This document shows, one piece after another, positions 33,107-61,105 of a DNA stretch of 64,000 bases. The notes beneath the pieces were generated by a model that made no database searches, was not told the origin of the DNA, and saw only the letters and a program-made list of their open reading frames with translations. Made by a program: the position numbers and the translations under genes. Position 1 is the stretch's first letter. Every line of letters begins with the position of its first letter. This stretch comes from Octopus sinensis (Eukaryota). The DNA lies in assembly GCF_006345805.1 (NCBI RefSeq), contig NC_042999.1, positions 166,718,001-166,782,000 on the forward strand, given 5' to 3'.

Positions 33107-33280
33107 ATAAATATTAGGGAATAAATCCAAATTTACAGGGAAAAAATCAGATTTAGGATTAAATCGATTTTATAGTAAAATATTATAAAATATTATTCGA
33201 GACAAAACCACTATTTTGCAAAACAAACAAGGAAAGACTTAATCAAAAAATAAAATTTTAATAAATAGTCAAAAAAACCG

Positions 33281-33323
33281 CCACTACAATCGTTTCTTGT
33301 CTTGATCGACAATCTTCAGGTGG
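33281..33323 (-). ncRNA. Minimal type I hammerhead ribozyme (mirror copy)
   Basis: Exact reverse complement of 33375-33417. Confidence 0.8.
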
Positions 33324-33374
33324 ACTTCCAATAATTCAGTGTCAAATTATGAATGACACTGAATTATTGGAAGT

Positions 33375-33417
33375 CCACCTGAAGATTGTCGATCAAGACA
33401 AGAAACGATTGTAGTGG
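33375..33417 (+). ncRNA. Minimal type I hammerhead ribozyme
   Basis: ccac CTGAAGA ttgtc gatcaa gacaa GAAA cgattg TA gtgg; complete core, stems I and II perfect. Confidence 0.8.
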
Positions 33418-33504
33418 CGGTTTTTTTGACTATTTATTAAAATTTTATGTATTGATTAAGTCTTTCCTTGTTTGTTTTGCAAAATAGTGGTTTTGTCTCG
33501 AATA

Positions 33505-33541
<37 letters not shown>

Positions 33542-50895: not shown

Positions 50896-50947
50896 TGTAT
50901 GTATGTATGTATGTGTGTATGTATGTATGTATGTATGTATATATTTT

Positions 50948-50979
<32 letters not shown>

Positions 50980-51984
50980 TGTATGTATGTATTATGTATG
51001 TATGTATGTATGTATGTATGTATTATGTATATATGTATTATGTATGTATGTATGCATGTATGTATGTATGTATGTATGTATTATGTATATATGTATTATG
51101 TATGTATGTATGTATTGTGTATGTATGTATGTATGTATGTATGTATTATGTATGTATGTATGTATTATGTATGTATGTATGTATGTATTATGTATATATG
51201 TATTATGTATGTAAGTATGTATGTATTATGTATATATGTATTATGAATGTATGTATGTATGTATTATGTATCTATGTATGTATGTATTATGTATATATGT
51301 ATTATGAATGTATGTATGTATGTATTATGTATGTATGTATGTATTATGTATATATGTATTATGAATGTATGTATGTATGTATTATGTATGTATGTATTGT
51401 GTATGTATGTATGTATGTATTATGTATGTATGTATGTATGTATGTATGTATTATGTATGTATGTATGTATGTATGTATTATGTATGTATGTATGTATGTA
51501 TGTATGTATGTATGTATTATGTATGTATGTATGTATGTATGTATGTATGCATGCATGTATGTATGTATGTATTATGTATGTATGTATGTATGTATGTATT
51601 ATGTATGTATGTATGTATATTATGTATGTATGTATGTATTATGTATGTATGTATGTATTATGTATGTATGTATGTATGTATTATGTATGTATGTATGTAT
51701 GTATTATGTATGTATGTATGTATGTATGTATGTATGTATTATGTATGTATGTATGTAGGTATGTATGTATTATGTATGTATGTATGTATGTATTATGTAT
51801 GTATGTATGTATGTATGTATTATTTATGTATGCATGTATGTATGTATGTATTATGTATGTATGTATATGTATTATGAATGTATGTATGTATGTATGTAGT
51901 ATGTATGTATTATGTATGTATTATGTATATATGTATTATGAATGTATGTATGTATTATTATGTATGTATGTATTATGTATGTAT

Positions 51985-52016
<32 letters not shown>

Positions 52017-52620
52017 TTATGTATGTATGTATTGTGTATGTATGTATGTATGTTATTATGTATGTATGTATGTATGTATGTTATGTATGTATGTATGTAT
52101 GTATGTATTATGTATGTATGTAGTATGTATGTATGTATTATGTATGTATTATGTATGTATGTATGTAATGTATGTATGTATGTATGCATGCATGTATGTA
52201 TGTATGTATTATGTATGTATGTATGTATGTATGTATTATGTATGTATGTATGTATTATGTATGTATGTATGTATGTATGTATTATGTATTATGTATGTAT
52301 GTATGTATGTATATGTATTATGTATGTATGTTATGTATGTATGTATTATTTATGTATGCATGTATGTATGTATGTATTATGTATGTATGTATGTAGGTAT
52401 GTATGTATTATGTATGTATGTATGTATGTATTATGTATGTATGTATGTATGTATGTATTATTTATGTATGCATGTATGTATGTATGTATTATGTATGTAT
52501 GTATGTATGTATTATGTATGTATGTTATGTATGTATTATGTATGTATTATGTATGTATGTATGTATGTACGTACGTACGTATGTATGTATGTATGTATGT
52601 ATGGATGGATGGATGCATGC
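50896..52620. repeat. 1.7-kb interrupted (TATG)n array
   Basis: Directly visible. Confidence 0.98.
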
Positions 52621-54726: not shown

Positions 54727-54811
54727 ACTATAGCCTCAGGCCGACCAAAGCCTTGTGAGAGGATTTTGTACACGGAAACTGAAAGAAGACTGTCGTATAT
54801 GTATATGTATA

Positions 54812-54857
<46 letters not shown>

Positions 54858-55035
54858 TATACCCCCACCGTCGCTTGACAACAGATGTTGCTGTGTTTAC
54901 TTCCCCATAACCCAGCGGTTCAGCAAAAGATACCGAGAGAATAAGTACTAGGCTTACAAAGAATAAATTCTGGCATCGATTTGTTCGACTAAAGGCGGTG
55001 CTCCACCATGGCCACATGGCTAAAACAAACAAGAC
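54727..55035 (+). mobile_element. tRNA-derived SINE, 5'-truncated
   Basis: Homology to 60245-60545. Confidence 0.8.
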
Positions 55036-55088: not shown

Positions 55089-55484
55089 TATTCTTTAGTA
55101 TTTTACATTGACTGTAACAAATTTAAAACAATTTTTAAACATACTTTCATACCATTTCTACATTTTCTTTTTAAGTATATATAGTTAGCAGCTGGAGGAG
55201 GCGTCCTCCTGCGGTTAAATACAGGAGTTACGTTGGCTCCTACAGAACGGTCACGTTTAAGCGGCAATAAACTTTGCTTCACAGTATAATCACTGCAGTC
55301 ATCTCTCATAGAGATTTTCTTGACCAACTAATTTGCTTATATATATATATATATATATATATATCACAATCAAGGAACGGCCATAATAGGCCATTCACCC
55401 ACTAGAAATAACAGCCAAAGCTTCAACCGCAAATAAACATCAATTCCGTAAACCAGGAGAAAATTAAAAAACATTTACCCTGTA

Positions 55485-55591
55485 ATTTCTTATACGATGC
55501 ACCGTTTCATCTACTGTTTAATGGTAAACTAACCTGATTAAATTAAATCAAGCCAATCTTCCATAGGCCCTTAGAATCATCAGTAAGAAAT
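55485..55591 (-). ncRNA. Type I hammerhead with enlarged stem II (mirror copy)
   Basis: Reverse complement of 55726-55832. Confidence 0.7.
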
Positions 55592-55725
55592 AGCCAAGTC
55601 GGAACAGATATTTTCACGAGGCATTTCCGACCCTGCCTCGGCAATATCTGACCTAAAATTTTAGGTCAGATATTGCCGAGGCAGGGTCGGAAATGCCTCG
55701 TGAAAATATCTGTTCCGACTTGGCT

Positions 55726-55832
55726 ATTTCTTACTGATGATTCTAAGGGCCTATGGAAGATTGGCTTGATTTAATTTAATCAGGTTAGTTTACCATTAAA
55801 CAGTAGATGAAACGGTGCATCGTATAAGAAAT
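55726..55832 (+). ncRNA. Type I hammerhead with enlarged (68-nt) stem II
   Basis: atttctta CTGATGA [t-tcta...taga-t] GAAA cggtgcatcg TA taagaaat; perfect 8-bp stem I. Confidence 0.7.
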
Positions 55833-56050
55833 TACAGGGTAAATGTTTTTTAATTTTCTCCTGGTTTACGGAATTGATGTTTATTTGCGGTTGAAGCTTT
55901 GGCTGTTATTTCTAGTGGGTGAATGGCCTATTATGGCCGTTCCTTGATTGTGATGTTGAACTTAAAAATGGTCTATGACTATTTAATTTTTTCCCACTAG
56001 GCCGCTGGTGGCAAAAAAATTCTACAAAATTTTTTGCCACCCTATATTGA

Positions 56051-56145
<95 letters not shown>

Positions 56146-56424
56146 TATATATGCTTTAAAATTTATTTGCACACATTTTTTATAGAATTCAGCCAGCACT
56201 GAAAGTAATGACATTTCTTATACGAATACGCTGATGTAAACAATGCAATCGAAGATAGAAAAATAATGAGTGTATATGCATATTTCAGTAGTTATTGCTC
56301 TTTTATCAGCACCACATTGTAATGTAGTGTTGATGAAAGAACAATGCCTCTTGAAATATGCATATTCAATAACTCTTCAAATATGCATATACACACACTA
56401 CCTACTTTTATTATTTTCGATCGC

Positions 56425-56565
56425 ATTGAGTTGAAATTCCGCCGAGGTGGACTTTGCCCTTCATCCTTTCTGGGTCGATAAAATAAGTACCAGTTGAACA
56501 CTGAGGTCGATGTAATCGATTCATCCCCAACTACTCCAAGCTGCCCTTGTGGCAAAAATTTAAAA
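56425..56565 (+). mobile_element. SINE body fragment
   Basis: gagttgaaattccgccgagg..gggtcgataaaataagtaccagt. Confidence 0.65.
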
Positions 56566-57640: not shown

Positions 57641-57813
57641 ATGTATGTATGTATGTATGTATGAATGCAAGCTTGTGTGTGTGTATGTATGTATGTATGT
57701 ATGTATGTATGTGTATGTATGTATGTATGTATGTATGTATGTATGTATGTATGTATGTATTTTGTATGTATTTATGTAGTATGTATGTATGTATGTATGT
57801 ATGTATTTGTATG

Positions 57814-57844
<31 letters not shown>

Positions 57845-58668
57845 TGTATGTATGTATGTATGTGTATGTATGTATGTATGTATGTATGTATGTATGTATA
57901 TGTATTTATGTATGTATGTATGTATGTATGTATGTATGTATGTATGTATGTATTATTTATGTATGTATGTATTATGTATGTATGTATGTATTTATGTATG
58001 TATGTATGTATTATTTATGTATGTATGTATGTATGTAGTTATGTATGTATGTATGTATGTATGTATGTATGTATTTATGTATGTATGTATGTATGTATGT
58101 ATGTATGTATGTATTTATGTATGTATGTATGTATGTATGTATGTATGTATGTATGTATTTATGTATGTATGTATGTATGTATGTAATGTATGTATTTATG
58201 TATGTTGTATGTATGTATGTATGTATTTGTATGTATGTATGTATGTGTGTATGTATGTATGTATTATGTATGCATATATGTATGTATGTATTTATGTATG
58301 TATGTATTATGTATGCATGTATGTATGTATACATGTATGTATGTATTTATGTATGTATGTATTATGTATGTATGTATGTATGTATGTATGTATTTATGCA
58401 TGTATGTATGTATGTATGTATGTATGTTGTATGTATGTATGTATTTATGTATGTATGTATTTATGTATGTATGTATGTATGTATTTATGTATGTATTTAT
58501 GTATGTATGTATGTATGTATGTATGTATGTATGTATGTATGTATGTATGTATGTATGTATTTATGTATGTATGTATGTATGTATGTATGTATGTATGTAT
58601 GTATGTATGTATGTATTATGTATGTATGTATGTATGAATGCAAGCTTGTGTGTATGTATGTATGTATG

Positions 58669-58704
<36 letters not shown>

Positions 58705-59676
58705 TGTATGTATGTATGTATTTATGTATGTATGTATGTATGTATTTATGTATGTATGTATGTATGTATTTATGTATGTATGTATGTATGTATGTATGTA
58801 TGTATGTATTATTTATGTATGTATGTGTGTATGTATGTATGTATGTATGTATGTATGTATGTATGTATGTATGTATGTATTTATGTATGTATGTATGTAT
58901 GTATGTATGTATTTATGTATGTATGTATGTATGTATGTATTTATGTATGTATGTATGTATGTATTTATGTATGTATGTATGTATGTATTTATGTATGTAT
59001 GTATGTATGTATGTATGTATGTATGTATGTATGTATGTATGTATGTATGTATGTATGGATGATGGATGGATGGATGGATGTATGTATGTATGTATGTATG
59101 TATGTATGTATGTATGTATTTATGTATGTATGTATGTATGTATGTATGTATGTATGTATTTATATGTATGTATGTATGTATGTATGTATTTATGTATGTA
59201 TGTATGTATGTATGTATGTATGTATGTATTTATGTATGTATGTATGTATGTATGTATGTATTATGTATGTATTATTTATGTATGTATGTATGTATGTATG
59301 CATGTATGTATGCATGTATGTATGCATGTATGTATGTATGTATGCATGTATGTATGCATGTATGTATGTATGTATGTATGTATGTATGTATGTATGTATG
59401 CATGTATGTATGTATGTTTGTATGTATGTATGTATGTATGCATGTATGTATGCATGTATGTATGTATGCATGTATGTATGCATGTATGTATGTATGTATG
59501 TATGTATGTATGTATGTATGTATGTATGTATGCATGTATGTATGTATGCATGTATGTATGCATGTATGTATGTATGTATGTATGTATGTATGTATGTATG
59601 TATGTATGTATGTATGTATGTTTGTATGTATGTATGTATGTATGTATGTTTGTATGTATGTATGTATGTATGTATG
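57641..59676. repeat. 2-kb interrupted (TATG)n array
   Basis: Directly visible. Confidence 0.98.
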
Positions 59677-60007
59677 TGCGCGCGTGTTGTTGTTGTTATT
59701 TAGTTCCAAGAGCTCTGATCGCTAATATGCAGACTTGGTTGATATGCAGTCATTTCTGCTATTACGCTTTTCATTCAGAAATGTATCTAAGACTACCTTT
59801 TGTATAGTTTCCCTTTATAAAGACGGCAGGATGTGATTTGAGAGAGATTTGGCTACCATTTCCTGGAATGGTTTCACTGACTTTGGAATCGAGAAAGAAG
59901 AGACATCAGATTGAGAATATTTCAACCGTAAAATTGCAGAGACGGAAGAATAAGATTATTCGGTATTCGTAGTATATTCATTATTTTTATATACACATGT
60001 ACGAATG

Positions 60008-60565
<558 letters not shown>

Positions 60566-60680
60566 TATATATAAAAATTCAAGGTGAGTACTTGATAATT
60601 GTAAGCACCTGTATATACCGTTTGGTGGTGTAGGTGGTGGAGTAAATTAATCAAAATTAAAACATGATGCCAAGGATTCA

Positions 60681-60758
60681 GCGGTACATATGTTTCGGGC
60701 CTTTATTAGACGGATTTATAACAATGCATAATGTGTGTCTATGGCCTTCTTCAGCCGC
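60681..60758 (-). ncRNA. Type I hammerhead with enlarged stem II (mirror copy)
   Basis: Reverse complement of 60960-61037. Confidence 0.75.
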
Positions 60759-60959
60759 GCACAATTACTACCTCAAGGACATGTATTACACCAAAAAATT
60801 CTACGTTGGGGATGCAAATCCTCTCAGTCGCGTACGACATAATGCAGTACCAGCACAAAAATGAAGCGTACCGCATTATGTCGTACGCGACTGAGAGGAT
60901 TTGCATCCCCAACGTAGAATGTTTTGGTGTAATACATGTCCTTGAGGTAGTAATTGTGC

Positions 60960-61037
60960 GCGGCTGAAGAAGGCCATAGACACACATTATGCATTGTTAT
61001 AAATCCGTCTAATAAAGGCCCGAAACATATGTACCGC
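60960..61037 (+). ncRNA. Type I hammerhead with enlarged (51-nt) stem II
   Basis: gcgg CTGAAGA a ggcc a tagac...gtcta ataaa ggcc c GAAA catatg TA ccgc. Confidence 0.75.
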
Positions 61038-61067
61038 TGAATCCTTGGCATCATGTTTTTATTTTGA

Positions 61068-61105
<38 letters not shown>

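What the first reader, a model, noticed from the sequence alone, without database searches (positions are those of the whole stretch)
55726..55832. Hammerhead with a 68-nt stem II containing a G-U-rich long hairpin
Seen: a perfect 8-bp stem I and complete core enclose a stem II far longer than in canonical minimal HHRs. Inside it atggaagattggcttgatt pairs with aatcaggttagtttaccat using several G-U pairs, which suggests selection on RNA rather than DNA structure. Inference: standard HHR models would probably miss it, and the insert could be a protein-binding or template-recognition domain.
Basis: partly seen in the sequence, partly recalled or inferred. Interest (0 to 1): 0.75.

Follow-up and report, generated by a model that had tools for sequence, protein, structure and literature searches.

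The report
Long-armed hammerhead in Penelope-riding retrozyme
This is one of thousands of copies of a small protein-free jumping repeat whose predicted self-cutting RNA has an unusually long, conserved side arm; rare rearranged copies joined at the predicted cut suggest the RNA is cut, likely closed into circles and copied into the genome by a borrowed enzyme that does not need the long arm.

Summary
55726-55832 is a type I hammerhead with a 68-nt stem II that Rfam misses. It is one arm of a head-to-head insertion (55363-56057) of a ~486-bp non-coding repeat, with 3,665 core-intact copies genome-wide. Across 33 subfamily rows all helices keep pairing (94.8% of cells; 12 of 36 pairs change on both sides). 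The long hairpin drifts between G-U and Watson-Crick pairs, almost never A-C, which favours selection on the RNA strand. Insertions sit in (TA)n as two arms with two fixed ends ~102 nt apart (455 vs 452 genome-wide), the Penelope-like 'tail' footprint. Three rearranged insertions carry a repeated junction at the predicted cut. One has 17 junctions between 290-nt units that lack the ribozyme, yet both ends are normal. Simple truncations are not enriched at the cut. Cleavage and expression are untested, and no partner element was found. Verdict: a new variant of the animal non-LTR retrozymes. The scan has reported this or a near-identical family before, here and in another genome.

The parts
55726..55832 (+). 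Type I hammerhead ribozyme motif with 68-nt stem II (the finding)
55734..55740 (+). Core CUGAUGA (C3-A9); position 7 varies freely across copies
55741..55808 (+). Stem II: U.U at 10.1-11.1, 4-bp base helix, 7x7 internal loop, distal hairpin 55753-55796
55809..55824 (+). GAAA core, self-complementary stem III with TGCA loop, GUA triplet; predicted cut after 55824
55655..56057 (+). Right arm of the insertion: unit positions 84-485, ending at the 'long' end in (TA)n
55363..55662 (-). Left, inverted arm: unit positions 84-383, ending at the 'short' end in (TA)n
55485..55591 (-). Mirror copy of the hammerhead in the left arm
   Evidence: mirror of 55726-55832
55955..56057 (+). ~102-nt 'tail' present on one arm only, between the two fixed ends
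55655..55662 (.). Palindromic AAAATTTT at which the two arms join (symmetric junction)
55338..55364 (.). Left (TA)n target
56056..56152 (.). Right (TA)n target

Best explanation
The motif is the hammerhead of a ~486-bp protein-free repeat present in thousands of copies, an animal non-LTR retrozyme that is likely cut by this ribozyme, likely ligated into circles and likely copied into TA microsatellites by the enzyme of a Penelope-like element. Step 1 (inferred): tandem arrays are transcribed. Step 2 (predicted): neighbouring ribozymes pair through their self-complementary stems III and cut after GUA as a double hammerhead, while a lone copy folds mostly into an inactive form. Step 3 (inferred from rearranged arrays): the ends are ligated into a circle. 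Step 4 (inferred from the insertion shape, which is shown): the enzyme primes from both broken DNA ends at two fixed sites ~102 nt apart, can go round the template several times, and the two cDNAs join head to head. The long stem II is a selected RNA structure (shown by covariation) and is not needed for step 4 (shown at one locus). Most likely it belongs to the folding of the ribozyme or the circle, with the internal loop after the 4-bp base helix standing where loop 2 would be (inferred). The window copy holds no cut-to-cut monomer, and a transcript through it would be predicted to pair into a 296-bp duplex, so it is probably a dead end.
For: Family: 3,665 core matches vs 0 control; ~486-bp tandem units. 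Structure: 94.8% of cells paired, 12 of 36 pairs with changes on both sides, 0 of 500 shuffles reach the covariation score, slid controls 26-45% paired. Core, in a sample chosen by its ends: the 11 core positions carry 9 minor alleles in 2,027 (0.44%) against 2.9% for the rest of the unit, while position 7 is T/C/A 70/49/51. Penelope footprint: long end 455 and short end 452 exact matches; 64 of 82 junctions join one long and one short arm. This matches the inverted copies and tail in PMC8557442 and the two start sites in PMC11167929. Intact 781-aa RT + GIY-YIG frames ending in (TA)n exist in the genome. Cut and circle: the C13 array has 17 junctions, all at the same place, joining unit position ~60 to the cut, in both arms, and no other locus has this junction. 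A C1 array has 2 junctions joining the stem II loop to the cut. L237 lacks the 27 nt right after the cut in both arms. No repeated-junction array appeared at two control positions (3 and 11 matches). About 55 of 84 long and 50 of 70 short arms read through a cut site. Dimer: the stem III duplex is -17.5 kcal/mol against -0.2 as a hairpin; the active fold lies 4.4 kcal/mol above the minimum.
Against: No cleavage, circle or transcript was observed. Simple 5' truncations are not enriched at the cut: 4 loci against 3 and 8 at the controls, and 4 of 164 arms in the sample (p = 0.09). On inspection only 1 of those 4 began at the cut, 1 within 2 nt, and 2 were alignment overruns. The rearranged junctions are only three events and have 1-3 nt of microhomology, so template switching or DNA deletion could give them. 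Pair 10.1-11.1 is non-standard in 13 of 33 rows. No autonomous element with a related 3' end was found in 79 loci. By column count the core is not significantly more conserved than the rest (1 of 11 vs 121 of 462, p = 0.30). In the unfiltered sample one hairpin position is A-C in 9 of 194 pieces. In an Anolis PLE, ribozyme cleavage was not needed for insertion in vitro (PMC11167929).
Confidence: 0.78

Rival explanations
1. Same element and enzyme, but the template is a linear uncleaved multimer. The ribozyme cuts rarely or only regulates transcript levels, and the rearranged arrays come from template jumps.
For: Most arms read through the cut. Truncations are not enriched there. A lone copy is predicted to fold inactive. 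Unprocessed RNA was the main substrate for the Anolis PLE (PMC11167929). Within-array variants are mostly mosaic rather than periodic.
Against: 17 junctions at the same place at the cut in both arms of C13, with no source array elsewhere in the assembly. Linear multimers should shrink at each round, yet young arms reach 5-7 units (inference).
Confidence: 0.3
2. The long stem II is a protein-binding or template-recognition domain for the reverse transcriptase.
For: The distal hairpin is conserved (1.6% minor alleles in the arms, 0.3% in the loop). A PLE hammerhead was protein-assisted in vitro (PMC11167929).
Against: The C13 derivative lacks stem II and has both normal ends. The fixed ends lie 130 and 230 nt downstream of the cut, not in stem II. 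Arm length and sequence differ between subfamilies and families. Binding of a host protein, as opposed to the RT, is not excluded.
Confidence: 0.15
3. A DNA foldback/MITE-like element or satellite, or an assembly palindrome, in which the hammerhead and hairpin are incidental.
For: The window copy is a perfect 296-bp palindrome. The whole unit folds better than shuffles on both strands (z about -6.4 and -5.4).
Against: The two ends are unequal and fixed. Inner junctions fall all over the unit. Position 7 varies while the core does not. G-U outnumbers A-C 12 to 1. Symmetric junctions recur in 14 of 82 insertions.
Confidence: 0.03

Closest known systems
Animal non-LTR retrozymes (Cervera & de la Pena 2020, PMC7229834: passages and parts 3-4 of 6 read; Li et al., bioRxiv 10.64898/2026.07.22.740005: part 1 of 5 and passages read)
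   Same: Non-coding tandem units with one type I hammerhead each, low GC, thousands of copies, PLEs in the same genome. A U.U at the base of helix II is known in axolotl HHR_Amex2, which cleaves weakly alone and better as a dimer.
   Different: Stem II is 68 nt, against a 4-bp helix in canonical metazoan motifs. The two-armed insertions with two fixed ends were not seen in the parts read (the preprint's only 'inverted' is in its reference list). Circles and cleavage were shown in coral, mussel and axolotl, but are not shown here.
Penelope-like element pLTR hammerheads (PMC4209133, parts 1-2 of 4 read) and PLE insertion structure (PMC8557442, passages and a supplement search; PMC11167929, parts 1-2 of 4 read)
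   Same: Palindromic stem III suited to dimer cleavage; tandem plus inverted 5'-truncated copies; a tail at one end; AT-rich or (TA)n targets; two start sites.
   Different: No ORF. The tail is ~102 nt rather than 30-40. Helix II of PLE minimal ribozymes is 7-8 bp with a conserved G10.1-C11.1 pair; here it is 68 nt with a variable closing pair.
Non-autonomous Chlamys elements such as MRC1 (PMC8557442, passage)
   Same: [quoted passage not shown]
   Different: Those resemble their partner at the 3' end; no such partner was found here.
Hammerheads with long peripheral helices: Clec2 discontinuous HHR (PMC6155905, passage); 'long helix II' viral HHRs (PMC13725137, passages)
   Same: The core tolerates enlarged peripheral domains.
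   Different: Clec2 is type III with a 150-1500-nt helix I. The viral 'long' helix II is only 6-8 bp.

Membership tests
Type I hammerhead ribozyme | Core CUGANGA...GAAA...NUH around a three-way junction, open at stem I | tested here: met
Type I hammerhead ribozyme | Three helices supported by covariation | tested here: met
   pairs with changes on both sides in stem I 5 of 8, stem II base 4 of 5, stem III 1 of 4
Type I hammerhead ribozyme | G10.1-C11.1 closing pair (typical, not absolute) | tested here: not met
   U.U in the window; A-U in 19, G-C in 1, non-standard in 13 of 33 rows. An active U.U precedent is in PMC7229834.
Type I hammerhead ribozyme | Loop 1 - loop 2 tertiary contact | not tested
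   Internal loops exist in stems I and II; no contact was analysed
Type I hammerhead ribozyme | Self-cleavage after H17 | not testable with these tools
   Indirect only: three rearranged insertions joined at the site; truncations not enriched
Non-LTR retrozyme | Tandem non-coding units of a few hundred bp, each with a type I hammerhead | tested here: met
   the window copy itself is a partial, non-tandem insertion
Non-LTR retrozyme | Expressed as linear and circular monomers | tested here: inconclusive
   No holder is on record as RNA and only contigs were available; genomic hints of circles
PLE-mobilised non-autonomous element | Tandem/inverted insertions with a tail at one end, microsatellite target | tested here: met
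PLE-mobilised non-autonomous element | Homology to the pLTR of an autonomous partner | tested here: inconclusive
   None in 79 PLE loci, but only 150 of 5,029 and 150 of 8,019 candidates were scored
Autonomous PLE | RT + GIY-YIG ORF between pLTRs | tested here: not met
   Units abut each other or (TA)n directly; there is no room for an ORF in the insertions mapped

The most novel reading that the evidence does not exclude
The genome records the whole retrozyme cycle. Ribozyme-cut ends are ligated, sometimes to the wrong partner, into circles that a Penelope-type enzyme copies round and round from two start sites at once. A ribozyme-less 290-nt circle is enough, which maps the recognition element to the half of the unit downstream of the cut. 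Long stems II have arisen in several families and act as a brake or protein-gated switch that keeps the circle from cutting itself. Because they escape Rfam models, and probably short-stem descriptors too, animal retrozymes are undercounted.
Probability: 0.4. Interest if true: 0.72.

Novelty: new variant of a known kind. Interest (0 to 1): 0.52.

Why it matters
That retrozyme circles are copied by Penelope-like enzymes is proposed in print (PMC7229834, PMC4209133) but was not shown in the parts I read. The two fixed ends and the natural ribozyme-less derivative give exact start sites and a minimal 290-nt template for an in vitro test. How a hammerhead stays silent in metazoan circles is stated as open in PMC7229834. 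A natural, covarying 68-nt stem II with 64- and 78-nt variants is a ready series for that question. Long-stem motifs are missed by Rfam, so surveys may undercount them.

Tried and rejected
Short-stem relatives: a pattern with stem II of 8-38 nt gave 15 matches against 14 for its reversed control, so chance level. Expression: no RNA holder listed. Contigs of 7 coded runs labelled as four organisms hold the unit and show the same variants, including matched frequencies of the compensatory change at the stem II base (39% and 40% in X15), but contigs cannot show ends, strand or circles. Truncation at the cut as a footprint (lead from e1-8664355): not supported here. Period-2 alternation of variants as a sign of dimer circles: seen in one array (L011), mosaic elsewhere, and polishing errors could mimic it, so it was set aside. 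Whole-unit strand asymmetry: mostly compositional. Partner search: blastn and nhmmer against 79 PLE loci found no related 3' end. A 775-aa family has a short minimal hammerhead after its frame, and the 781-aa family seems by eye to have a variant one. Idea that a long stem II explains Craig et al.'s 'HHR_half_core' Naiads: not tested; the supplement marks the Octopus vulgaris Naiad that way, and earlier notes of this scan propose a permuted ribozyme for Naiads instead. Rfam miRNA hits on the palindrome are below gathering score and reflect only the hairpin. Print searches returned no description of an animal hammerhead with a stem II of this length, and none of an octopus retrozyme. Lunse et al. 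2017 was seen only as a citation, and the bioRxiv supplements and most other supplements were not seen; they may hold such variants.

Full report
Observation. The motif is as described: an 8-bp stem I, the core CUGAUGA and GAAA, a 4-bp stem III round TGCA, GUA at 55822-55824, and a 68-nt stem II (55741-55808). Stem II opens with U.U, then 4 bp, a 7x7 internal loop and a 19-position hairpin with 13 Watson-Crick pairs, 5 G-U and one A.A. The region folds better than all 200 shuffles (z -3.38). Rfam 15 reports nothing in the window at gathering score and no hammerhead family at E up to 10 on 751 or 161 bases.

Context. The motif lies in a perfect palindrome of two 296-bp arms. The right arm runs on to 56057, and both ends stop in (TA)n. 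The window belongs to a 2.72-Gb animal genome, octopus-like by my recall and by earlier notes of the scan; I did not test this. The arm is part of a ~486-bp unit that forms tandem arrays. A core pattern with a 58-76-nt gap has 3,665 matches against 0 for the reversed control. Subfamilies range down to about 79% identity.

Covariation. From 83 distinct rows (294 hits in partly overlapping loci) I chose 33 by eye, dropping near-duplicates and most rows with single-base indels or single-copy changes. On these, 94.8% of cells pair, 12 of 36 pairs change on both sides, and 0 of 500 shuffles reach the covariation score. 12 of 500 reach the number of doubly changed pairs, and 341 of 500 reach the number of pair types. 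Slid controls pair at 26-45%. The rows are related, so these are not probabilities. In the distal hairpin 11 pairs vary on one side and 2 on both. Twelve positions show G-U in some row and one shows A-C (p = 0.0017 if positions were independent). A double-stranded palindrome would give both equally, and the cDNA strand would see the G-U pairs as A-C, so the RNA strand is favoured. Stem II folds at -22.1 (plus) against -8.6 (minus) kcal/mol as RNA, and -5.3 against -4.7 as DNA. The patterns behind this alignment fix the core, so I tested it separately in 268 unit pieces from 120 loci chosen by their ends. The core has 0.44% minor alleles against 2.9% elsewhere, and position 7 is T/C/A 70/49/51. 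By column count the difference is not significant (p = 0.30). Position 10.1 is A in 134 of 170, so the window's U.U is a minority state. One hairpin position is A-C in 9 of 194 pieces.

Insertion shape. Arrays are two arms back to back. One ends at unit position ~485, the other at ~383. Exact end patterns match 455 and 452 times (these patterns catch only some subfamilies). Of 82 distinct junctions from 120 loci, 64 join a long to a short arm, 7 long-long, 1 short-short, and 10 are unresolved. Inner breakpoints are spread over the unit, but in 14 of 82 both arms stop within 4 nt of the same position (1.5 expected), as in the window. PLE insertions are described with inverted truncated copies and a 30-40-bp tail at one end (PMC8557442), and the tail equals the distance between two RT start sites (PMC11167929). 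The genome holds intact 781-aa frames with RVT_1 (E about 1e-6, just under the cut-off) and GIY-YIG, a CX4CxxC linker (Neptune-like by the motif in PMC8557442) and (TA)n ends. None of 79 PLE loci resembles the unit, so the partner is unnamed.

Is it cut? A pattern for sequence that begins at the cut after foreign bases gave 20 matches at 8 loci: 4 truncated arms, 2 small insertions at or near the site, and 2 rearranged arrays. Matched patterns at two control positions gave 3 truncated arms, and 8 truncated arms plus 3 point variants, with no rearranged array. So truncation is not enriched at the cut. The rearranged arrays say more. At C13:24.73 Mb, 290-nt units run from the cut to unit position ~60. 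All 17 junctions, 13 in one arm and 4 in the other, are at the same place, and the ends are the normal short and long ends in (TA)n. No other locus has this junction. Both arms carry it, so it was in the template, and a ligated circle is the simplest template. At C1:4.99 Mb two junctions join the stem II loop to the cut (3-nt microhomology). L237 lacks the 27 nt after the cut in both arms (2-nt microhomology). It is 1 of 9 deletions or jumps of 6 nt or more found in the 120 loci. Three events are suggestive, not proof.

What the long arm does. The C13 units lack the ribozyme and stem II and were still inserted normally, so stem II is not the enzyme's recognition site, at least not an essential one. 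Its length is 64-78 nt in the family. Five other families met in 547 kb of fetched DNA have stems II of 45-61 nt (1.7 long hits expected per shuffle). Most fold as a short base helix, an internal loop and a distal hairpin. Two families with 31- and 61-nt stems share 3' motifs with this unit by eye. A lone ribozyme is predicted to be mostly inactive: the core pairs with stem III, the active fold is 4.4 kcal/mol higher, and the pairing probability of stem III is 0.007. Two stems III form a -17.5 kcal/mol duplex. This fits dimer cleavage of multimers and a quiet monomer, as described for other metazoan motifs (PMC4209133, PMC7229834). I infer that the arm serves folding or control of the ribozyme or circle; a host protein site is not excluded.

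Comparison and novelty. It works like, and by architecture belongs to, the animal non-LTR retrozymes; expression as circles is untested. It differs by the long stem II, the relaxed closing pair and the regular two-armed insertions. Six searches found no such stem II in print, within the limits of the library. The scan has already reported ~490-nt two-armed retrozymes in this genome and another; a look-up by sequence found nothing. I had noted the two fixed ends before reading these. The short notes shown do not mention the ribozyme-less array. Verdict: real, a new variant of a known kind, interest 0.52.

Noticed in passing
window 60643-61075: A second palindromic element (208-nt arms) of another family, with a hammerhead whose stem II is 51 nt (core at about 60964); a relative in L133 has 61 nt.
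   Followed up: partly
window 33184-33514: A third palindromic element (161-nt arms) with a short-stem-II hammerhead (16 nt, core at about 33379) between TA repeats.
   Followed up: partly
L343:1964-7231 (G000:C13 ~24.734-24.740 Mb): Array of about 18 ribozyme-less 290-nt units joined at the predicted cut, with normal ends.
   Followed up: yes
L160-L279, 14 of 82 junctions: Both arms stop at the same unit position far more often than chance, sometimes after different numbers of laps (L230); unexplained, possibly two enzymes on one broken RNA.
   Followed up: partly
L322, L323, L324, L339: All four arms that begin at the cut are short-end arms of about 130 nt; three cut-site hits (L322, L323, L325) have CA just before the cut.
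   Followed up: no
L065 and L037 (minus strands), L123, L305, L116: Other families, with 61- and 31-nt stems II, share 3' motifs with this unit by eye, hinting at a common partner enzyme.
   Followed up: partly
L136:minus 585; L134:850; L015; L014: A family with a 45-56-nt stem II and a G-C closing pair; one member has what looks like a C-UUCG-G loop at its tip.
   Followed up: no
L131-L138: Young PLE family with intact 781-aa frames, an upstream 479-aa frame in some copies, and by eye a variant-core minimal hammerhead near its 3' end.
   Followed up: partly
L009-L012 (G000:C5 ~59.27 Mb): Variants alternate unit by unit over six units; a dimer template or a polishing artefact.
   Followed up: partly
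window 54730-55035 and 56440-56530: Copies of abundant SINE-like repeats, recalled as octopus SINEs, flank the insertion; label from memory.
   Followed up: no
window 50896-52619 and 57641-59677: Very long TGTA microsatellite tracts of 1.7 and 2.0 kb.
   Followed up: no
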